Shown here one piece after another: positions 1-8,513 of a DNA stretch of 13,986 bases. The notes under the pieces were generated by a model, which was not told the DNA's origin, ran no database searches, and saw nothing but the letters and a program-made list of their open reading frames with translations. The stretch lies in NCBI GenBank assembly GCA_000004985.1, contig GG738988.1; one strand, given 5' to 3'. Source of the stretch: Naegleria gruberi. Lineage: Eukaryota. Made by a program: the position numbers and the translations under genes. How positions within the stretch are numbered: position 1 is the first letter of the stretch; each line of letters starts with the position of its first letter.

Positions 1-129
1 CCATACAGTGACTTGTACACTTCTTACATTACTGGTGGAATTATTTGTTTTTGTTTTGCTGCACCAATTTTATTTTTCGTATTTATTAAGGTTGCTATTT
101 GGCTCTATGTCAAGTGGAAACACAATTAA
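1..129 (+). CDS. Possible 3' end of an upstream gene (partial, no start in window). The tail reads PYSDLYTSYITGGIICFCFAAPILFFVFIKVAIWLYVKWKHN*, a TM-like C-terminal segment
   Basis: Frame 1 is open from base 1 to TAA at 127..129. A 20-residue hydrophobic stretch is followed by a basic KWKHN stop-transfer-like end. Only 42 codons, no homology check possible. Confidence 0.2.
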   Translation, partial: PYSDLYTSYITGGIICFCFAAPILFFVFIKVAIWLYVKWKHN

Positions 130-707
130 AATGACATCATCATTTGGAAGTAGTGAGGAAATAAATTGTAATTTGTTGTATAAAATTACAATGTACTACA
201 GAAGAAACACTTATTTAGGTCCTTCTACCGTACGATATTAGATCTGGTCAATTAGATTGAGAATGTTGAATATCTGACACCGGTAAAAAGGAGCCACAAA
301 TAGTTATTTTGTCTTGCTACAGAAACCTATTTGTAAATATCTCAACATATTAATAATTGAACAATAGAAAGTTGCAATTGAAGATTAATATCCAATATTT
401 CTATATATTGGTGACTTGCTTCCTTTTATTTACCATTAATTTCATGAAATTCCACATGTCCAAATAAGAATTTAGTAATTATTAGAAATCAAGGAAGGTT
501 ATTTTACCGAGGATGTACCTTTATCGTCAACGAGTTGATCAACCTTTCAAACTCGAGTAGTATCTAGTTCACTAATATGATTTTTCTTACACGAAAAAGG
601 AAAACATAACACTTACCATACAAACAATTGTACTCAACTTTAAATTAACATTCCAGTACATACTTTCAACAGACCATTGGATCCATGAATTGTATTTCGA
701 ATCATCT

Positions 708-1134
708 TTATTTATTAGATCGTCCCTTAGAAAAGTGAAAAGTCCACATTGGGAAGTTAAATTGCATTGAAAGTTGTGATGGAGAAGTTGAAGAGTTTTT
801 CCGTTTCCTTGTTGTTTTAGTTTGTTTGGTCAACTTGGTATTTATCAGTGTGGGTATGTTTGAGGATGACGATGAGGAAGTATTATTCGAATTAGTGGTG
901 GAAACGATTGAATTCTTTCGTTTTGGACTTGAAGCAAGTTTCGTCTTGCTATCCTTAGGATTCAGATTGGAGCTATTCGAAGGTGAGGTAATGGTTTGGA
1001 GGAGAGAATTGATACTTGTTGGGGTAGAAGGTGAAGTAGTGTTAATTGGATTATTGGTTGATTCTCCAACATTAGGCAAGTTTCCACTTTCATTGGACGG
1101 CGAATCAGCATTATTCGAAAGGTAATTTTTCTGA
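708..1134 (-). CDS. C-terminal fragment of a gene whose body lies in the assembly gap. It is a low-complexity S/T/N/P-rich tail ending SKGRSNK*
   Basis: Minus-strand ORF is open from the gap edge (1134) down to TAA (708..710 rev). Composition is strongly biased (SSSSSS run, TSPSTPTS, KRK clusters), typical of a disordered or mucin-like tail. The 1154-aa ORF call is inflated by translating N as X. Confidence 0.4.
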
Positions 1135-4124
1135 NNNNNNNNNNNNNNNNNNNNNNNNNNNNNNNNNNNNNNNNNNNNNNNNNNNNNNNNNNNNNNNNNN
1201 NNNNNNNNNNNNNNNNNNNNNNNNNNNNNNNNNNNNNNNNNNNNNNNNNNNNNNNNNNNNNNNNNNNNNNNNNNNNNNNNNNNNNNNNNNNNNNNNNNNN
1301 NNNNNNNNNNNNNNNNNNNNNNNNNNNNNNNNNNNNNNNNNNNNNNNNNNNNNNNNNNNNNNNNNNNNNNNNNNNNNNNNNNNNNNNNNNNNNNNNNNNN
1401 NNNNNNNNNNNNNNNNNNNNNNNNNNNNNNNNNNNNNNNNNNNNNNNNNNNNNNNNNNNNNNNNNNNNNNNNNNNNNNNNNNNNNNNNNNNNNNNNNNNN
1501 NNNNNNNNNNNNNNNNNNNNNNNNNNNNNNNNNNNNNNNNNNNNNNNNNNNNNNNNNNNNNNNNNNNNNNNNNNNNNNNNNNNNNNNNNNNNNNNNNNNN
1601 NNNNNNNNNNNNNNNNNNNNNNNNNNNNNNNNNNNNNNNNNNNNNNNNNNNNNNNNNNNNNNNNNNNNNNNNNNNNNNNNNNNNNNNNNNNNNNNNNNNN
1701 NNNNNNNNNNNNNNNNNNNNNNNNNNNNNNNNNNNNNNNNNNNNNNNNNNNNNNNNNNNNNNNNNNNNNNNNNNNNNNNNNNNNNNNNNNNNNNNNNNNN
1801 NNNNNNNNNNNNNNNNNNNNNNNNNNNNNNNNNNNNNNNNNNNNNNNNNNNNNNNNNNNNNNNNNNNNNNNNNNNNNNNNNNNNNNNNNNNNNNNNNNNN
1901 NNNNNNNNNNNNNNNNNNNNNNNNNNNNNNNNNNNNNNNNNNNNNNNNNNNNNNNNNNNNNNNNNNNNNNNNNNNNNNNNNNNNNNNNNNNNNNNNNNNN
2001 NNNNNNNNNNNNNNNNNNNNNNNNNNNNNNNNNNNNNNNNNNNNNNNNNNNNNNNNNNNNNNNNNNNNNNNNNNNNNNNNNNNNNNNNNNNNNNNNNNNN
2101 NNNNNNNNNNNNNNNNNNNNNNNNNNNNNNNNNNNNNNNNNNNNNNNNNNNNNNNNNNNNNNNNNNNNNNNNNNNNNNNNNNNNNNNNNNNNNNNNNNNN
2201 NNNNNNNNNNNNNNNNNNNNNNNNNNNNNNNNNNNNNNNNNNNNNNNNNNNNNNNNNNNNNNNNNNNNNNNNNNNNNNNNNNNNNNNNNNNNNNNNNNNN
2301 NNNNNNNNNNNNNNNNNNNNNNNNNNNNNNNNNNNNNNNNNNNNNNNNNNNNNNNNNNNNNNNNNNNNNNNNNNNNNNNNNNNNNNNNNNNNNNNNNNNN
2401 NNNNNNNNNNNNNNNNNNNNNNNNNNNNNNNNNNNNNNNNNNNNNNNNNNNNNNNNNNNNNNNNNNNNNNNNNNNNNNNNNNNNNNNNNNNNNNNNNNNN
2501 NNNNNNNNNNNNNNNNNNNNNNNNNNNNNNNNNNNNNNNNNNNNNNNNNNNNNNNNNNNNNNNNNNNNNNNNNNNNNNNNNNNNNNNNNNNNNNNNNNNN
2601 NNNNNNNNNNNNNNNNNNNNNNNNNNNNNNNNNNNNNNNNNNNNNNNNNNNNNNNNNNNNNNNNNNNNNNNNNNNNNNNNNNNNNNNNNNNNNNNNNNNN
2701 NNNNNNNNNNNNNNNNNNNNNNNNNNNNNNNNNNNNNNNNNNNNNNNNNNNNNNNNNNNNNNNNNNNNNNNNNNNNNNNNNNNNNNNNNNNNNNNNNNNN
2801 NNNNNNNNNNNNNNNNNNNNNNNNNNNNNNNNNNNNNNNNNNNNNNNNNNNNNNNNNNNNNNNNNNNNNNNNNNNNNNNNNNNNNNNNNNNNNNNNNNNN
2901 NNNNNNNNNNNNNNNNNNNNNNNNNNNNNNNNNNNNNNNNNNNNNNNNNNNNNNNNNNNNNNNNNNNNNNNNNNNNNNNNNNNNNNNNNNNNNNNNNNNN
3001 NNNNNNNNNNNNNNNNNNNNNNNNNNNNNNNNNNNNNNNNNNNNNNNNNNNNNNNNNNNNNNNNNNNNNNNNNNNNNNNNNNNNNNNNNNNNNNNNNNNN
3101 NNNNNNNNNNNNNNNNNNNNNNNNNNNNNNNNNNNNNNNNNNNNNNNNNNNNNNNNNNNNNNNNNNNNNNNNNNNNNNNNNNNNNNNNNNNNNNNNNNNN
3201 NNNNNNNNNNNNNNNNNNNNNNNNNNNNNNNNNNNNNNNNNNNNNNNNNNNNNNNNNNNNNNNNNNNNNNNNNNNNNNNNNNNNNNNNNNNNNNNNNNNN
3301 NNNNNNNNNNNNNNNNNNNNNNNNNNNNNNNNNNNNNNNNNNNNNNNNNNNNNNNNNNNNNNNNNNNNNNNNNNNNNNNNNNNNNNNNNNNNNNNNNNNN
3401 NNNNNNNNNNNNNNNNNNNNNNNNNNNNNNNNNNNNNNNNNNNNNNNNNNNNNNNNNNNNNNNNNNNNNNNNNNNNNNNNNNNNNNNNNNNNNNNNNNNN
3501 NNNNNNNNNNNNNNNNNNNNNNNNNNNNNNNNNNNNNNNNNNNNNNNNNNNNNNNNNNNNNNNNNNNNNNNNNNNNNNNNNNNNNNNNNNNNNNNNNNNN
3601 NNNNNNNNNNNNNNNNNNNNNNNNNNNNNNNNNNNNNNNNNNNNNNNNNNNNNNNNNNNNNNNNNNNNNNNNNNNNNNNNNNNNNNNNNNNNNNNNNNNN
3701 NNNNNNNNNNNNNNNNNNNNNNNNNNNNNNNNNNNNNNNNNNNNNNNNNNNNNNNNNNNNNNNNNNNNNNNNNNNNNNNNNNNNNNNNNNNNNNNNNNNN
3801 NNNNNNNNNNNNNNNNNNNNNNNNNNNNNNNNNNNNNNNNNNNNNNNNNNNNNNNNNNNNNNNNNNNNNNNNNNNNNNNNNNNNNNNNNNNNNNNNNNNN
3901 NNNNNNNNNNNNNNNNNNNNNNNNNNNNNNNNNNNNNNNNNNNNNNNNNNNNNNNNNNNNNNNNNNNNNNNNNNNNNNNNNNNNNNNNNNNNNNNNNNNN
4001 NNNNNNNNNNNNNNNNNNNNNNNNNNNNNNNNNNNNNNNNNNNNNNNNNNNNNNNNNNNNNNNNNNNNNNNNNNNNNNNNNNNNNNNNNNNNNNNNNNNN
4101 NNNNNNNNNNNNNNNNNNNNNNNN
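1135..4124. other. Assembly gap (2990 N)
   Basis: Uninterrupted run of n. Confidence 0.99.
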
Positions 4125-4144
4125 TTTATGAAATATTACTGAAA

Positions 4145-4636
4145 ATGTCAGATGAAAAGAAGAAAATGTCACTTGTCGGATTGGTTACTGTCTTTATAGT
4201 TTGCAGTAGCTTATTCATTTTGACAGTTGCTTGTCTATGCTCAACCATTGTCCCAATTGAAATTCAAAACTACATACGTGTCATTTGTCTAATTTTGACA
4301 TTAATTGCCTTAATAATTTCATGGTCAATTCTCTTTGGATATTCAATGAAAATTTATCTTCTCTTATCCAAATATAGAAAGATTAATGTGATGAGATTCA
4401 AATTTTCACAATATTTATTACTGTTAATTGTGTCCATTTCGTATTTGTTATACGAAATGATTTCAGAATTTGGATTTGCGACTGAACTTTATGTTTTTGA
4501 GAATTTGTGGACAATTTTGTTTAAACATCGAATTGGAAGTTATGTGATTGGATTTTCATTGTGGGGAATGACCTATGTCTTATTTTCAAAACAATACTTT
4601 GAGGAATGTTATGCAAGATTTTGGAGAAAGAAATGA
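4145..4636 (+). CDS. Small multi-pass membrane protein, 163 aa with about 4 hydrophobic helices; function unknown
   Basis: ATG at 4145 in gaaaATGt context, TGA at 4634..4636. Four roughly 20-aa hydrophobic segments (LVGLVTVFIVCSSLFILTVACLC, ICLILTLIALIISWSILFGY, LLLLIVSISYLLYEMI, IGSYVIGFSLWGMTYVLF) are separated by short basic loops. ATTAAA/AATAAA follow about 20-30 nt downstream. The gene starts 20 nt after the gap, so an upstream exon cannot be excluded. Confidence 0.45.
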   Translation: MSDEKKKMSLVGLVTVFIVCSSLFILTVACLCSTIVPIEIQNYIRVICLILTLIALIISWSILFGYSMKIYLLLSKYRKINVMRFKFSQYLLLLIVSISYLLYEMISEFGFATELYVFENLWTILFKHRIGSYVIGFSLWGMTYVLFSKQYFEECYARFWRKK

Positions 4637-4659
4637 GACGAAAGTTTTACAAAATTAAA

Positions 4660-4665
4660 AATAAA
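4660..4665 (+). promoter_or_regulatory. Candidate polyadenylation signal AATAAA (ATTAAA at 4654..4659 just upstream) for the 4145..4636 gene
   Basis: Hexamer 24 nt after the TGA stop, followed by an A-rich tract. Confidence 0.3.
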
Positions 4666-4739
4666 TTTCAAAAACAAAAAAAACAAAACTTTCCTTTTAG
4701 CTTTTAACCACGCTAAGCTGTAATCATATTAACAACATC

Positions 4740-5099
4740 ATGGCAGCGACCAACAACAACACTGCTCATTCACCAAACTTTGAACAAATAGATAAAGATT
4801 TAGACCGCCTTCTTTTCCTTTCATGCAACCATGTTGAGAATAATAACAACAATAACCTAACTTTACACTCCATCACAACTCGTATTAATTCTGATCAACA
4901 TCCTGAACACGGCCATCATCATAATGATCATGTTCATCATCATCAACAATATCCAGCCGATAGTAGACATTTAATAACAACTTTAACAAGAACAACATTA
5001 GCACGAGATGGAGGAGGACCAGTACTTGGTTTTCCATTCGTCGACAAGGCTAGCAACATGTATAATAATAATACCGAGCAGACCAGGAATTTTAATTGA
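4740..5099 (+). CDS. Small His/Asn-rich protein (119 aa), unknown function
   Basis: ATG in aacatcATGg context, TGA at 5097..5099, AATAAA 93 nt downstream. Contains HPEHGHHHNDHVHHHQQY and an N6 run. Locally more C-ending codons than neighbours. No recognisable domain; could be a chance ORF. Confidence 0.3.
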   Translation: MAATNNNTAHSPNFEQIDKDLDRLLFLSCNHVENNNNNNLTLHSITTRINSDQHPEHGHHHNDHVHHHQQYPADSRHLITTLTRTTLARDGGGPVLGFPFVDKASNMYNNNTEQTRNFN

Positions 5100-5191
5100 A
5101 GCCTTTCATGTATGCGCAAAGTCCAAGACTGTGCGTTTGGGGCTGAGGTTTCTTGGTCTGATTGGTGGTGTATTCTAACAGATTATGTTGT

Positions 5192-5197
5192 AAATAA
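5192..5197 (+). promoter_or_regulatory. Candidate AATAAA polyadenylation signal for the 4740..5099 ORF
   Basis: Hexamer about 93 nt after the stop. Confidence 0.3.
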
Positions 5198-5206
5198 AAG
5201 AAATGT

Positions 5207-5212
5207 TTTAAT
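5207..5212 (-). promoter_or_regulatory. Candidate ATTAAA polyadenylation signal (minus strand) for the NHL-BTB gene
   Basis: tttaat on the plus strand equals ATTAAA on the minus strand, about 50 nt downstream of the TGA at 5263..5265. The convergent gene 3' ends lie only about 160 bp apart. Confidence 0.25.
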
Positions 5213-5262
5213 ATAGAATGTTCTGCAAAATTAAGTTGTAATAATATCTATCCAAAATAAGC

Positions 5263-7449
5263 TCAAAAGTCCTGTGAAAACTTGAAGAATATTTCTTGCC
5301 AAACTTTTTCAGGTAATTTGGAAATTTCGGTGCGATCTCTGAAAAGTTGTTTTCCATTGACCATGCTAAATGTGACAATCTCTCCCATAAATTGCTCAAA
5401 TATTGGATGATCAAGATATTTTTCACATGCTTTAAGCATATTAAAGTAATTATCAATGGATAGATTAAAGTTATTCTTGCAATAATCGATTACATATTGA
5501 ATTTCATGTTTCGTTACCATTTCAAGTAATCCAATAATTTTAACATCATCAATGTCAATTGAAATTCCATAACAATATTTGATCACAATTTCCAATAATT
5601 CTAAATCTTCTGATTCGTCAGGTGTGAATATTCCATCATCACTCAAATCACTGAAACAAGATCCACTGTCAAATAATGCATTAAACAATGTGCTAAATGA
5701 AGTCAATATAGTTTTGTGACAATATAAGTATTTGTCTTGTCCCATTTTGATTTTTACATCACTTGTTTTCTTGTCATTATATAATGATTCAATTATTTGT
5801 GGCTCAGTTTCAATTGTTTCCTCAATATTAATTGCAGTTGGTTGAGTAATGATCATTTTTGAAAAAATGGCAGTAGCATTTCTCATAATTATTGGAAGAG
5901 TTGGTAATAAAGTGTTTCCTTTTTTGGTCCTCATTTGAACAACAGCATATTCAATACAATAGTTATTCAAATGATCAAGAATGTAATTTTGAACATTGAA
6001 TTCCTCATTGCAAATTTTGAGTAAATTTTCAATTGTTTCCCATTTGAAAGTAAGATTTTCTAATGTGAGTGAGTTCACAAATTCACTTGTCAATGATCTT
6101 TTCAAATCAATAAATTCACCATTCTTGAATAAACCCAAAATGAATAAAACATCCAACATTTCTTCTTTGTTAAACTTTACCTTATTCTTATCATATATCA
6201 AAGAATCAATTAATTTTTGAATAATTTCTTGTTGTGATGAACTCATCAAACAAAGTATCTTTTCATTATTCAAAATGCCACAAAATTTTGGTGAAATTTT
6301 GTCAATGAGTGGAATGAATCCATAAATTGGCAATCCAAATAATTCATCTCTTGAATGTTTTTTCAAGTTATGAAATTCTATTTTAGAATACAAGCTACTA
6401 TTTCCAAAATGAGGATACATTCTAATATCAAAAGGTGAATCACCACTGAATCCAGCAGTTCCATTTCCAGCAACTGTTACAATATTTCCATTTTCTAATA
6501 TTTTTCTAATTCTATGATTACCATACTCAGCAATATAAATTTCATTATTTGATGAAACAAAAACACCAGCAGGACTATTCAGTTGTGCATTTGTTGCAAG
6601 ACCATTATCGCCACAAAATCCATAAGGTCCATTTCCAGCAATTGTTACAATATTTCCATTTTCTAATATTTTTCTAATTCTATGATTAATTTGATCAGCA
6701 ATATAAACTTCATTATTTGATGAAACAAAAACACATCTAGGAAAATTCAGTTTTTCTTTTGTTGCAAGACCATTGTCACCACTGAATCCAGCAGTTCCCT
6801 TTCCAGCAATTGTTACAATATTTCCATTTTCTAATATTTTTCTAATTCTATGATTATCATAATCAGCAATATAAATTTCATTATTTGATGAAACAAAAAC
6901 ACCAGCAGGACTATTCAGTTGTGCATTTGTTGCAAGACCATTATCGCCACAAAATCCATAAGGTCCATTTCCAGCAATTGTTACAATATTTCCATTTTCT
7001 AATATTTTTCTAATTCTATGATTAATTTGATCAGCAATATAAACTTCATTATTTGATGAAACAAAAACACATCTAGGAAAATTCAGTTTTTCTTTTGTTG
7101 CAAGACCATTGTCACCACTGAATCCAGCAGTTCCCTTTCCAGCAATTATTACAATATTTCCATTTTCTAATATTTTTCTAATTCTATGATTATCATAATC
7201 AGCAATATAAACTTCATTATTTGATGAAACAAAAACACCAACAGGACCATTCAGTTGTGCTTTTGTTGCAATACCATTATCACCACTGAATCCAGCAGTT
7301 CCATTTCCAGCAATTGTTACAATATTTCCATTTTCTAATATTTTTCTAATTCTATGATTACCATAATCAGCAATATAAACTTCATTATTTGATGAAACAA
7401 AAACACTCTCAGGAGAATACAGTTGCGCACTGGTAGCAAGTGAAGACAT
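5263..7449 (-). CDS. Intronless gene encoding an N-terminal six-bladed NHL-repeat beta-propeller, an alpha-helical linker and a C-terminal BTB/POZ domain with BACK-like extension (728 aa)
   Basis: ATG at 7447..7449 (rev) in aaaaaaATGt context; the ORF-track start at 7488 is an alternative TTG. TGA at 5263..5265 (rev). Six 56-aa repeats carry the NHL signature VFVSSNNEVYIADxxNHRIRKILENGNIVTIAGNGTAGFSGDNGLAT. BTB core DVKIKMGQDKYLYCHKTILTSFSTLFNALFDSG...LELLEIVIKYCYGISIDIDD. One long uninterrupted ORF. Confidence 0.85.
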   Translation of the reverse strand: MSSLATSAQLYSPESVFVSSNNEVYIADYGNHRIRKILENGNIVTIAGNGTAGFSGDNGIATKAQLNGPVGVFVSSNNEVYIADYDNHRIRKILENGNIVIIAGKGTAGFSGDNGLATKEKLNFPRCVFVSSNNEVYIADQINHRIRKILENGNIVTIAGNGPYGFCGDNGLATNAQLNSPAGVFVSSNNEIYIADYDNHRIRKILENGNIVTIAGKGTAGFSGDNGLATKEKLNFPRCVFVSSNNEVYIADQINHRIRKILENGNIVTIAGNGPYGFCGDNGLATNAQLNSPAGVFVSSNNEIYIAEYGNHRIRKILENGNIVTVAGNGTAGFSGDSPFDIRMYPHFGNSSLYSKIEFHNLKKHSRDELFGLPIYGFIPLIDKISPKFCGILNNEKILCLMSSSQQEIIQKLIDSLIYDKNKVKFNKEEMLDVLFILGLFKNGEFIDLKRSLTSEFVNSLTLENLTFKWETIENLLKICNEEFNVQNYILDHLNNYCIEYAVVQMRTKKGNTLLPTLPIIMRNATAIFSKMIITQPTAINIEETIETEPQIIESLYNDKKTSDVKIKMGQDKYLYCHKTILTSFSTLFNALFDSGSCFSDLSDDGIFTPDESEDLELLEIVIKYCYGISIDIDDVKIIGLLEMVTKHEIQYVIDYCKNNFNLSIDNYFNMLKACEKYLDHPIFEQFMGEIVTFSMVNGKQLFRDRTEISKLPEKVWQEIFFKFSQDF
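5431..5760 (-). other. Segment encoding the BTB/POZ domain (residues about 565-674 of the ATG-7449 product)
   Basis: Motif DVKIKMGQDKYLYCHKTILTSFSTLFNALFDSGS, a hydrophobic helix bundle, then LELLEIVIKYCYG, matching the BTB consensus (DVxLxVxxxxFxAHKxVLAxxSxYFxAMF). Recognised by eye only. Confidence 0.65.
6403..7404 (-). repeat. Array of six 168-bp (56-codon) NHL blade repeats inside the CDS
   Basis: Six in-frame units of about 56 aa with a 168-nt DNA periodicity. The last blade is shorter (54 aa) and degenerate at its end. Confidence 0.9.
6531..7216 (-). repeat. Two tandem copies of a 336-bp (two-blade) unit that are about 99% identical at DNA level
   Basis: Offset-336 alignment: 6531..6880 against 6867..7216 differ at only about 2-3 positions (for example caattgttac vs caattattac, aaatttc vs aaacttc). 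Flanking blades are clearly more diverged. Confidence 0.85.
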
Positions 7450-8231
7450 TTTTTTAATTGTAATCTGAACGGAAAAAACAAAATTCAAAGGTTGAAAGGT
7501 GAATTTGACAACTTGTTAATAATACCACTTTAGCAACAGGAATGAAGAACATGGCTGGCAAGAAACTAAACAGAAGCCTGCATATTGTTCATTCACTCCG
7601 ATACTTTACCAGCTTTGATGTAGCGTGATGATAACGAACAATGTTTAATAATGGTAAGGAGTGAGGTTTCAAGGATTTTTTTCCCGCCTTCTTTTTCTTT
7701 TGTTTTTTTCATCACTTCCTTTCGCGAAGTACAAAGCCACGTTGTATTGTGCTGACTGGCTGTTGGTAAAATGTTGTTGATGAATCTTCCTTTCTACATT
7801 ACAAAAGCGTACAGTCCATTACCATCTCTACTAAGGAAATGAATATCCTTAACTAATTTCTTGATGGAAATATTATTGCAAAAGGCATTCATGAAGCATT
7901 GTAATATATACTACCAAGTACCACTGGCTACGAAAAAAATGTTAGTAAAAAAGAAAGTGATTATGTACTAACAATTGAGTTTTGACTTTTTGCTGACGTT
8001 AGATAAAAAAGCCCTTCTTCATTGAGTTTGCAATATCTTACCGTGTTTCAACGCATAGTGTTGATACTTCTTTTCCAGGACATGGTTTCCCATTCCAACC
8101 CAACACTTTTTCTGTACTGGAACATATCTCTCAATTTCACACACACCAAGTTTAGTTTTAATCGTTTCCTACTAGTAGCGAAGAAAAAAAAAAAGTTTAA
8201 AAGTCGAAAGTCAACAACCACTACTTCCAAT
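7450..8231. promoter_or_regulatory. 782-bp divergent intergenic region between the two NHL genes, with putative bidirectional promoter and 5' UTRs
   Basis: Head-to-head gene starts at 7449 (minus) and 8232 (plus). Locally higher GC (7680..7780). An A11 run at 8184..8194. TACTAAC at 7967..7973 with a downstream AG at 8001..8002. Confidence 0.35.
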
Positions 8232-8321
8232 ATGTTATTTCGTTCAACACTTGTTCAATTATTGGTGGTGCTGATGTTATTATCGCTCCAACTAATCGCT
8301 CATTTATTTCTAGTTCATGCA
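8232..8321 (+). other. Predicted signal peptide (30 aa)
   Basis: MLFR plus a 22-residue hydrophobic core, then VHA|QK cleavage-like site. Confidence 0.55.
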
Positions 8322-8469
8322 CAAAAGAGTAGACCAGTTGAGTATTCTCTTGAAACTATATTGGGAGGACAAATTGGAGATGGCATGAAGGCAACCAATG
8401 TTGGAATGTATAGACCTTATGGATTGGCAGTTGACAAGAAAAACGGTAATATTTATTATGCAGAATCGG
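8232..8469 (+). CDS. Exon 1 of a secreted NHL-repeat protein gene: signal peptide plus start of the first NHL blade
   Basis: ATG 8232 in ccaatATGt context. N-terminus MLFRSTLVQLLVVLMLLSLQLIAHLFLVHA|QKS has n/h/c regions typical of a signal peptide. Then PYGLAVDKKNGNIYYAES (NHL strand). Candidate donor g|GTATGG at 8470. The in-frame upstream extension to 8022 has no coding features. Confidence 0.55.
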
Positions 8470-8513
8470 GTATGGAATTTCACATTATTTTGCTGGAGCA
8501 CCAAATTACCAAG
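8470..8513 (+). other. Candidate intron 1 (44 nt, GTATGG...CAAG), phase 1. Alternative explanation is a 1-nt frameshift
   Basis: Reading frame switches from frame 0 (open until 8558) to frame 2 (open from 8450) in this interval. A 44-nt intron equals the size of intron 3 and joins ...YYAES-A-GVGSDSLAF. No clear branch motif. Confidence 0.4.

What the first reader, a model, noticed from the sequence alone, without database searches (positions are those of the whole stretch)
5263..7449. Inverted, non-canonical architecture: NHL beta-propeller N-terminal with a C-terminal BTB/POZ domain
Characterised BTB propeller proteins put the BTB first and a Kelch propeller last (Cul3 substrate adaptors). 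Here a six-bladed NHL propeller is followed by a helical linker and a C-terminal BTB with a BACK-like tail, all in one intronless ORF. NHL domains in characterised proteins are usually attached to TRIM/RING-B-box modules instead. If the BTB binds a cullin or multimerises, this would be an NHL-based substrate adaptor of an undescribed layout.
Basis: partly seen in the sequence, partly recalled or inferred. Interest (0 to 1): 0.6.

Follow-up and report, generated by a model that had tools for sequence, protein, structure and literature searches.

The report
Naegleria NHL-propeller BTB adaptor-like protein

Summary
ORF 5263..7449 (-) encodes 728 aa. It has six 56-aa NHL blades (aa 3-338), a confidently predicted helical domain with no detectable relatives (aa ~379-529), a BTB domain (aa 553-660, Pfam E 8.9e-11) and a two-helix 3-box plus short BACK-like tail. 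The protein is exactly XP_002668650.1 / UniProt D2W4U6, a "predicted protein" of Naegleria gruberi, and the window is that gene's whole 13,986-bp scaffold.

The fusion is not a mis-assembly. At least 11 N. gruberi paralogues, 2 N. lovaniensis proteins and independent metagenome contigs share the same collinear layout.

The claim of an inverted, undescribed layout is overstated. LZTR1 (Kelch then BTB-BACK), RCBTB1 (RCC1 then BTB) and SPOP (MATH then BTB) already place the recognition domain first. What is new is NHL as the partner domain and the helical domain.

One curiosity stands out: the blades are 85-100% identical at the DNA level, and their differences sit in a few loop positions. Overall interest is modest.

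The parts
5263..7449 (-). Complete intronless CDS (728 aa plus stop at 5263-5265). It equals N. gruberi XP_002668650.1 / EFC35906.1 / UniProt D2W4U6 (NAEGRDRAFT_82333).
   Evidence: ORF list and translation. Exact-sequence look-up, with a contig length of 13986 that equals the window.
6436..7443 (-). Six-bladed NHL beta-propeller, aa 3-338, made of six 56-aa (168-nt) units. Blades are at 7276-7443, 7108-7275, 6940-7107, 6772-6939, 6604-6771 and 6436-6603.
   Evidence: Pfam NHL x6 and TEN_NHL. Tandem repeat of period 168 x6 and period 336 x2.9. Blade register and identity matrix. Six blades in all full-length paralogues.
6527..7147 (.). Near-perfect internal DNA duplication of a two-blade (336-nt) unit. 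A 285-nt stretch (6527-6811) recurs exactly at 6863-7147, so blades 3 and 5 are 100% identical in DNA.
   Evidence: Offset-336 exact-match scan and identity matrix.
6316..6435 (-). Connector between the propeller and the helical domain, aa 339-378. It contains the family-conserved LKK[HY]xRD motif and is predicted with low confidence.
   Evidence: Family alignments. Low pLDDT at the N-terminus of the model.
5863..6315 (-). Family-specific all-alpha domain, aa ~379-529 (about 9 helices, pLDDT mostly above 90). It has no Pfam or PDB relative.
5470..5793 (-). BTB/POZ domain, aa 553-660.
5266..5469 (-). Helical tail after the BTB, aa 661-728. It comprises a two-helix 3-box-like hairpin (aa ~668-697) plus a further short BACK-like stretch of helices, ending in the conserved LPxK motif.

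Best explanation
The ORF is one member of a multigene family that, among named hits, is restricted to Naegleria. Its layout is NHL propeller, then a family-specific helical domain, then BTB, then a 3-box and short BACK-like tail.

It most likely works like SPOP, LZTR1 or RCBTB1, as a substrate adaptor of a cullin-3 RING ligase. In that model the C-terminal BTB plus 3-box dimerises and docks on the N-terminal domain of Cul3. The 'top' face of the N-terminal six-bladed NHL propeller captures the substrate, which could be a protein or conceivably an RNA-protein complex. The helical domain sets the spacing and orientation between the two.

Shown here: the domain identities, their order, their conservation across paralogues and species, and the fold similarity of the BTB-tail to Cul3 adaptors. 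Inferred: Cul3 binding, dimerisation, substrate capture, and the presence of a Cul3 partner in Naegleria.

The propeller itself is very young or is being continuously homogenised. Its blades are 85-100% identical in DNA, and they differ almost only at loop positions that generic propeller topology places on one face.

Confidence that the architecture is real is about 0.97. Confidence in the CRL3-adaptor mechanism is about 0.55-0.6.
For: - Architecture: Pfam NHL x6 plus BTB, and an AF2 model of aa 354-728 with pLDDT 86.9 and pTM 0.81.
- Real gene: the sequence is identical to XP_002668650.1. The same collinear layout appears in at least 11 N. gruberi entries, 2 N. lovaniensis entries, and ENA/JGI metagenome contigs, one of them next to a CDC48 gene.
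- The sequence profile aligns beyond the BTB into the 3-box and BACK of KBTBD2, A55 and SPOP. The 3-box raises SPOP-Cul3 affinity strongly (quoted in PMC3616122).
- Precedents exist for a recognition domain placed N-terminal to the BTB in CUL3 adaptors: LZTR1 and RCBTB1.
- Blade differences fall in the same loop positions (5-13, 27-28, 47-50 of the 56-aa unit) in three paralogues.
Against: - No binding data exist. Pfam BACK is not detected.
- The phi-x-E Cul3-contact motif of the alpha3-beta4 loop is not cleanly conserved. The family has an insertion of about 4 residues there. HMMER aligns a Ser, not a hydrophobic residue, to phi. A conserved [FYLI]-x-D-[LI] (F-S-D here) may substitute, but this is untested.
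- I did not verify that N. gruberi encodes a Cul3 orthologue (one search found no literature).
- The NHL domain is more conserved between paralogues than the BTB or the helical domain: 65% against 30-38% versus N. lovaniensis. This is the opposite of the usual pattern for rapidly diversifying adaptors.
Confidence: 0.58

Rival explanations
1. The BTB is only a self-association module and does not bind a cullin. It would dimerise or oligomerise an NHL propeller whose own activity is the function, for example RNA or protein binding as in the Brat/TRIM71 NHL domains, or carbohydrate or other ligand binding. The protein would then be a multivalent scaffold or regulator rather than an E3 adaptor.
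For: - The phi-x-E motif is ambiguous because of an insertion in the alpha3-beta4 loop.
- Pfam BACK is not called.
- BTB domains that are not Cul3 adaptors (BCL6, PLZF, Miz1), and NPR1, also score well.
- The most conserved part of the family is the NHL scaffold.
Against: - The helical hairpin after the BTB aligns with the 3-box/BACK of SPOP, KBTBD2 and A55. To my knowledge this element is characteristic of Cul3-binding BTB proteins and is absent from ZBTB-type BTBs.
- The best structural matches are all CRL3 adaptors, several of them solved in complex with Cul3.
Confidence: 0.27
2. This particular copy is a young, possibly non-functional duplicate. It could be a decaying or neutrally evolving paralogue on a small unplaced scaffold, and its blade number and sequence may reflect recent unequal crossing-over or assembly of a repeat rather than selection.
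For: - The gene sits on a 13,986-bp scaffold that is 35% gap.
- A 285-nt exact internal repeat is present, and blades 3 and 5 are identical.
- Blade-to-blade dN/dS is about 1 or higher for blades 2-6, which means no sign of overall purifying selection, although the counts are small.
- Several paralogue models are truncated.
Against: - The 728-codon ORF is intact, with the family's start and its conserved C-terminal LPxK tail.
- Six blades is the number in every full-length paralogue, including N. lovaniensis.
- N. lovaniensis P0007 shows equally homogenised blades, so homogenisation is a property of the family and not an assembly accident.
- Invariant and variable positions are the same in different paralogues, which argues for constraint.
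- Against: expression is detected and site-model tests on paralogue CDSs show purifying selection.
Confidence: 0.1
3. The NHL half and the BTB half were joined by a chimeric mis-assembly.
For: None found. The only contributing fact is that the scaffold is small and has gaps.
Against: - The junction lies in a gap-free 5.9-kb block (4125-10113).
- The same junction sequence (…AGNGTxGFSGDSPFD…LKKHSRD…) occurs in P0002, P0003, P0004, P0005 and P0006, in N. lovaniensis P0007/P0155, and on an independent metagenome contig, P0008/L001.
Confidence: 0.01

Closest known systems
SPOP / MATH-BTB proteins (CRL3 adaptors)
   Different: The recognition domain is a six-bladed NHL propeller, not a MATH domain. 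A ~150-aa helical domain with no known relatives lies between it and the BTB. The phi-x-E motif (M-E-E in SPOP) is not clearly conserved.
LZTR1 (Kelch - BTB-BACK - BTB-BACK) and RCBTB1/2 (RCC1 - BTB - BTB)
   Same: A beta-propeller sits at the N-terminus and the BTB at the C-terminus, within proteins that act as CUL3 adaptors (PMC8154269, PMC4974088).
   Different: Those proteins have two tandem BTB units and Kelch or RCC1 blades. This protein has one BTB and NHL blades. The helical domain ahead of the BTB shows no BTB or BACK similarity.
BTB-BACK-Kelch proteins (KLHL/KBTBD, KEAP1, poxvirus A55)
   Same: Both combine a BTB, a 3-box and a six-bladed propeller in one polypeptide. The best sequence-profile match is the KBTBD2 BTB-BACK (E 4e-11).
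   Different: The domain order is reversed. The full BACK domain (PF07707) is not detected. The propeller is NHL, not Kelch.
TRIM-NHL proteins (TRIM2/3/32/71, Brat)
   Same: A six-bladed NHL propeller acts as the target-binding module of a protein that carries a ubiquitin-ligase-related module and a self-association module.
   Different: There is no RING, B-box or coiled coil here. The ligase link would be indirect, through BTB and Cul3. The NHL is N-terminal rather than C-terminal. The blades resemble the bacterial/teneurin-like NHL type (TEN_NHL hit).

Membership tests
NHL repeat propeller (Pfam PF01436) | Repeated NHL units scoring above the Pfam gathering threshold, about six per domain | tested here: met
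   143.7 bits against a cut-off of 20. Six units of exactly 56 aa.
BTB/POZ superfamily (Pfam PF00651) | BTB HMM match above the gathering threshold, and a BTB fold | tested here: met
Cul3 (CRL3) substrate adaptors | A 3-box / BACK-type helical hairpin directly after the BTB | tested here: met
   The model has helices at aa ~668-697 and further helices to aa 727. The profile aligns through KBTBD2 residues 16-173 and the SPOP 3-box. 168 of 177 residues of SPOP BTB+3-box superpose. The Pfam BACK HMM itself is not matched.
Cul3 (CRL3) substrate adaptors | phi-x-E motif in the alpha3-beta4 loop, which inserts into the Cul3 H2/H5 pocket (PMC3616122) | tested here: inconclusive
   The loop carries an insertion of about 4 residues. 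HMMER aligns S-G-S-C to KBTBD2 S-G-L-S, so there is no hydrophobic residue at phi. A conserved [FYLI]-x-D-[LI] (F-S-D) lies within the insertion. Model coordinates could not be superposed residue by residue.
Cul3 (CRL3) substrate adaptors | Physical binding to Cul3 NTD, and a Cul3 orthologue in the same organism | not testable with these tools
   No eukaryotic genome collection or multimer prediction was available. The literature search for Naegleria plus Cul3 returned nothing. A BTB-binding cullin clade is reported as one of three ancestral clades identified from animals, fungi and plants (quoted in PMC12816148).
Cul3 (CRL3) substrate adaptors | A separate protein-interaction domain for the substrate | tested here: met
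   An NHL propeller is present. No substrate is known.
BTB-BACK-Kelch (KLHL/KBTBD) | N-terminal BTB, a full BACK domain (PF07707) and C-terminal Kelch repeats | tested here: not met
   The BTB is C-terminal. There are no BACK or Kelch Pfam hits at E<=1.
LZTR1 / RCBTB type | An N-terminal propeller followed by two tandem BTB(-BACK) units | tested here: not met
   The propeller-first order is met. Only one BTB is present. The preceding helical domain has no BTB or BACK similarity.
TRIM-NHL | RING, B-box and coiled coil N-terminal to the NHL | tested here: not met
   There are no RING or B-box hits. The protein begins directly in blade 1.
MATH-BTB (SPOP) | An N-terminal MATH domain | tested here: not met
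   There is no MATH hit. The order and the BTB-3-box fold do match.

The most novel reading that the evidence does not exclude
The NHL-BTB family is a fast-evolving Cul3-based recognition system specific to Naegleria, and perhaps to heteroloboseans more widely. Its propeller blades would be repeatedly regenerated by tandem duplication or gene conversion and then diversified at a handful of top-face loop positions. That would generate new binding specificities, for instance against proteins of giant viruses or intracellular bacteria. It would be analogous to the adaptively evolving MATH-BTB and F-box families of nematodes and plants, built on a quasi-symmetric, near-identical-blade propeller.
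Probability: 0.12. Interest if true: 0.6.

Novelty: new variant of a known kind. Interest (0 to 1): 0.3.

Why it matters
If the BTB-tail does bind Cul3, Naegleria would have built a cullin-3 adaptor family on an NHL propeller. In animals that module is tied to RING-type TRIM ligases, so this would be a convergent coupling of NHL recognition to ubiquitylation.

The family could point to Naegleria-specific degradation targets. It is present in N. lovaniensis, the close non-pathogenic relative of N. fowleri. It also contains an uncharacterised helical domain.

The near-identical blades give a natural example of a quasi-symmetric propeller, which is useful for studying how repeat proteins are born and homogenised.

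None of this overturns current understanding. BTB domains are known to combine promiscuously with protein-binding domains (PMC4327156).

Tried and rejected
- Genomic context of the N. gruberi paralogues was not retrievable. The look-up of encoding contigs has no record for the window protein, P0001, P0002 or P0004.
- The first AF2 run, with a 6-sequence alignment, gave pLDDT 55.7 and was discarded. It was replaced by a 13-sequence alignment.
- The first representative search profile still contained about 36 NHL positions, so most of the 13,638 hits were NHL proteins. Only hits that covered the whole profile were used.
- The word-index profile search recovered only 6 proteins and added little.
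- The afdb50 fold library was unavailable.
- The helical domain profile found nothing significant in PDB sequences or Pfam.
- The Pfam 'Linker_histone', 'AA_kinase' and similar hits were rejected as summed weak matches to the repeated NHRIRKILENGNIV segment, because no individual stretch was significant.
- The bacterial promoter/terminator scan is irrelevant for a eukaryote and showed no enrichment.
- Literature searches for Naegleria+BTB+NHL, Naegleria+Cul3 and NHL repeat+BTB architecture found no description of the family.
- I considered a dictyostelid or giant-virus origin from base composition. This was rejected once the exact N. gruberi match was found.
- I ran no further search on looking for independent NHL+BTB fusions outside Naegleria. 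That question stays open.

Full report
**What is in the window.** The window is 13,986 nt at about 30% G+C and has two long N runs (1135-4124 and 10114-12072). On the minus strand an uninterrupted ORF runs from ATG 7449 to a stop at 5263-5265 and encodes 728 aa. An exact-sequence look-up shows that this protein is EFC35906.1 / XP_002668650.1 / UniProt D2W4U6, named 'predicted protein' / 'uncharacterized protein NAEGRDRAFT_82333' of Naegleria gruberi. It lies on a contig of exactly 13,986 nt. The window is therefore a whole small scaffold of the N. gruberi assembly, and the N runs are most likely assembly gaps. The gene lies inside a gap-free block (4125-10113).

**Check of the observation.** Pfam calls six NHL repeats (PF01436, E 4.2e-43; teneurin-type NHL E 1.2e-39) and one BTB domain at aa 555-660 (PF00651, 42.4 bits against a cut-off of 20.5). 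The BTB corresponds to window 5470-5787. The Pfam BACK model is not matched. In detail: an N-terminal NHL propeller, a helical middle and a C-terminal BTB with a helical tail, all in one intronless ORF.

**Anatomy.**
- The propeller consists of six units of exactly 56 aa, covering aa 3-338.
- I modelled aa 354-728. A 6-sequence alignment gave a poor model (pLDDT 55.7). A 13-sequence alignment of diverse family members gave a good one (pLDDT 86.9, pTM 0.81).
- The model shows an all-alpha domain of about nine helices (aa ~379-529, pLDDT mostly above 90).
- It also shows a BTB core (aa ~553-660), then two helices (aa ~668-697) and further short helices to the C-terminus.

**What the BTB resembles.** A family profile hits KBTBD2 best among solved structures (E 4e-11). 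The alignment runs from the BTB into the 3-box and first BACK helices (KBTBD2 residues 16-173). KEAP1, BCL6, PLZF, KBTBD4, vaccinia A55 and SPOP follow.

- then KLHL22, KEAP1 BTB+3-box, KLHL11-Cul3 and KLHL3-Cul3

Foldseek against the PDB gives the same picture. Against viral models the matches are poxvirus and giant-virus BTB proteins.

**It is a family, not a chimera.** The C-terminal half finds five N. gruberi proteins at 48-88% identity. Two of them also carry NHL repeats, and the others are truncated models that still begin with the end of the last blade.

An exhaustive profile search of 1.84 billion representatives finds further full-length relatives of 663-762 aa with the same layout. 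By name these are N. gruberi XP_002679718, XP_002672041, XP_002677205, XP_002674680 and XP_002671157, and N. lovaniensis XP_044543810 and XP_044543825 ('BTB domain-containing protein'). Unnamed ENA and JGI metagenome proteins are also found.

Of 20 aligned members, 19 hit BTB and 12 hit NHL. The rest are fragments. One metagenomic member (P0008, 724 aa) is a single ORF on an independently assembled contig next to a CDC48 gene. The junction sequence is conserved throughout. The mis-assembly scenario is excluded.

**Most likely mechanism.** The arrangement is a recognition domain, then BTB, then a 3-box and short BACK. That is the arrangement of SPOP. Together with the fold matches it points to a cullin-3 substrate adaptor. 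In that model the BTB plus 3-box dimerises and binds the Cul3 N-terminal domain, and the NHL propeller presents the substrate.

This step is inferred, not shown, and two caveats apply:
- The phi-x-E motif buries the most surface in known BTB-Cul3 complexes (PMC3616122), and it is not cleanly conserved here. The alpha3-beta4 loop has an insertion of about 4 residues, and HMMER puts a Ser at the phi position. A conserved [FYLI]-x-D-[LI] (F-S-D here) within the insertion might play that role.
- I could not verify a Cul3 orthologue in Naegleria. A BTB-binding cullin clade is reported as one of three ancestral clades identified from animals, fungi and plants (PMC12816148).

The main rival is that the BTB merely oligomerises an NHL domain that has its own function.

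**Comparison with what is known.**
- LZTR1 is described as an atypical BTB-Kelch protein with an N-terminal six-bladed Kelch propeller followed by two BTB-BACK units, and it acts as a CUL3 adaptor (PMC8154269).
- SPOP places MATH before the BTB.
- BTB is known to combine with many protein-binding domains (PMC4327156).

What is not described in any paper I could find is NHL as the partner domain, and the intervening helical domain. The protein fails the membership tests for BTB-BACK-Kelch, LZTR1/RCBTB, TRIM-NHL and MATH-BTB. It is best filed as a new variant within the BTB-adaptor kind. It is already catalogued in databases but uncharacterised.

**An unreported feature: nearly identical blades.** The NHL region is a DNA tandem array, with period 168 nt x6 at 88% identity and period 336 nt x2.9 at 96%. 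Blades 3 and 5 are 100% identical in DNA. A 285-nt stretch recurs exactly at an offset of 336 nt.

Mean blade-to-blade protein identity is 0.82 here and 0.80 in N. lovaniensis P0007, but only 0.3-0.4 in other members (P0008, P0010). Some paralogues have therefore undergone recent blade duplication or gene conversion.

The 20 variable positions of the 56-aa unit cluster at positions 5-13, 27-28 and 47-50, and the same positions vary in P0002 and P0007. From generic four-stranded blade topology these are the D-A and B-C loops, meaning one face of the propeller, whereas the A-B ('SSNNE') and C-D ('ENGN') loops are invariant. That placement is my inference and was not checked against a model. Blade-to-blade dN/dS for blades 2-6 is 1.1-2.2, but it rests on few substitutions and is not statistically robust.

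Between paralogues the NHL region is more conserved than the helical and BTB parts: 65% against 30-38% versus N. lovaniensis.

**Verdict.** The feature is real and correctly described. The adaptor interpretation is reasonable but unproven. The claimed unusualness of the domain order is not upheld. The domain combination and the helical domain are lineage-specific novelties of modest interest. The homogenised propeller is the most intriguing detail.

Noticed in passing
window 6436-7443 (especially 6527-6811 versus 6863-7147): The six NHL blades form a DNA tandem array at 85-100% identity. Blades 3 and 5 are identical, and a 285-nt stretch repeats exactly at an offset of 336 nt. Differences between blades cluster in the same loop positions in three paralogues. 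This suggests recent two-blade duplication or gene conversion with diversification of the loops.
   Followed up: yes
window ~8229-10113 (+): The neighbouring gene is divergently oriented and encodes another NHL-repeat protein. It appears to have a signal peptide (MLFRSTLVQLLVVLMLLSLQLIAHLFLVHA...). It is split over several ORFs (8022-8558, 8779-9135, 9208-10107), which suggests introns, and it runs into the assembly gap at 10114. Its blades are much more divergent than those of the BTB gene.
   Followed up: partly
window 5263-7449 (-), aa ~135-165 and its repeats: Pfam reports 'Linker_histone' (E 1.1e-11), and paralogue P0002 carries precomputed PF00538 and PF00696 labels. No individual stretch is significant. 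These are summed weak matches to the repeated NHRIRKILENGNIV segment and could mislead automatic annotation.
   Followed up: partly
window 1-13986: The window is an entire 13,986-bp N. gruberi scaffold. About 35% of it (4,950 nt) is N, in two gaps (1135-4124 and 10114-12072) plus a single N at 12159. The flanking genes are therefore incomplete.
   Followed up: yes
window 12160-13185 (-): This is the 342-aa N-terminal part of a gene interrupted by the gap. It contains 'AFTCAHVL' and 'NSCSGGPVF' motifs that recall the His and Ser regions of chymotrypsin-fold serine peptidases, but there is no Pfam hit at E<=0.01.
   Followed up: no
window 4145-4636 (+) and 4740-5099 (+): Two small ORFs lie downstream of the BTB gene. 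One is a hydrophobic 163-aa protein that is probably multi-pass membrane. The other is an Asn- and His-rich 119-aa ORF. Neither has a Pfam hit, and neither exact sequence is in the protein collection.
   Followed up: no
window 708-1133 (-): This is the Ser/Thr/Asn-rich low-complexity C-terminal end of a gene whose remainder is lost in the 1135-4124 gap. It has no Pfam hit.
   Followed up: no
L001 5001-7175 (ENA metagenome contig k141_554141): An environmental family member (P0008, 724 aa, NHL+BTB) is encoded as a single ORF about 1.2 kb downstream of a CDC48/p97 gene on a contig at 38.5% G+C. It probably comes from an uncultured Naegleria-like eukaryote. Its blades are only 20-44% identical to one another.
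   Followed up: partly
family alignment A2 (window aa 3-338 versus aa 362-728): Between paralogues and species the NHL region is more conserved than the helical domain, the BTB or the tail. Against N. lovaniensis the values are 65% for NHL versus 30%, 38% and 15%. This is the reverse of what is usual for adaptor families whose recognition domain diversifies.
   Followed up: partly
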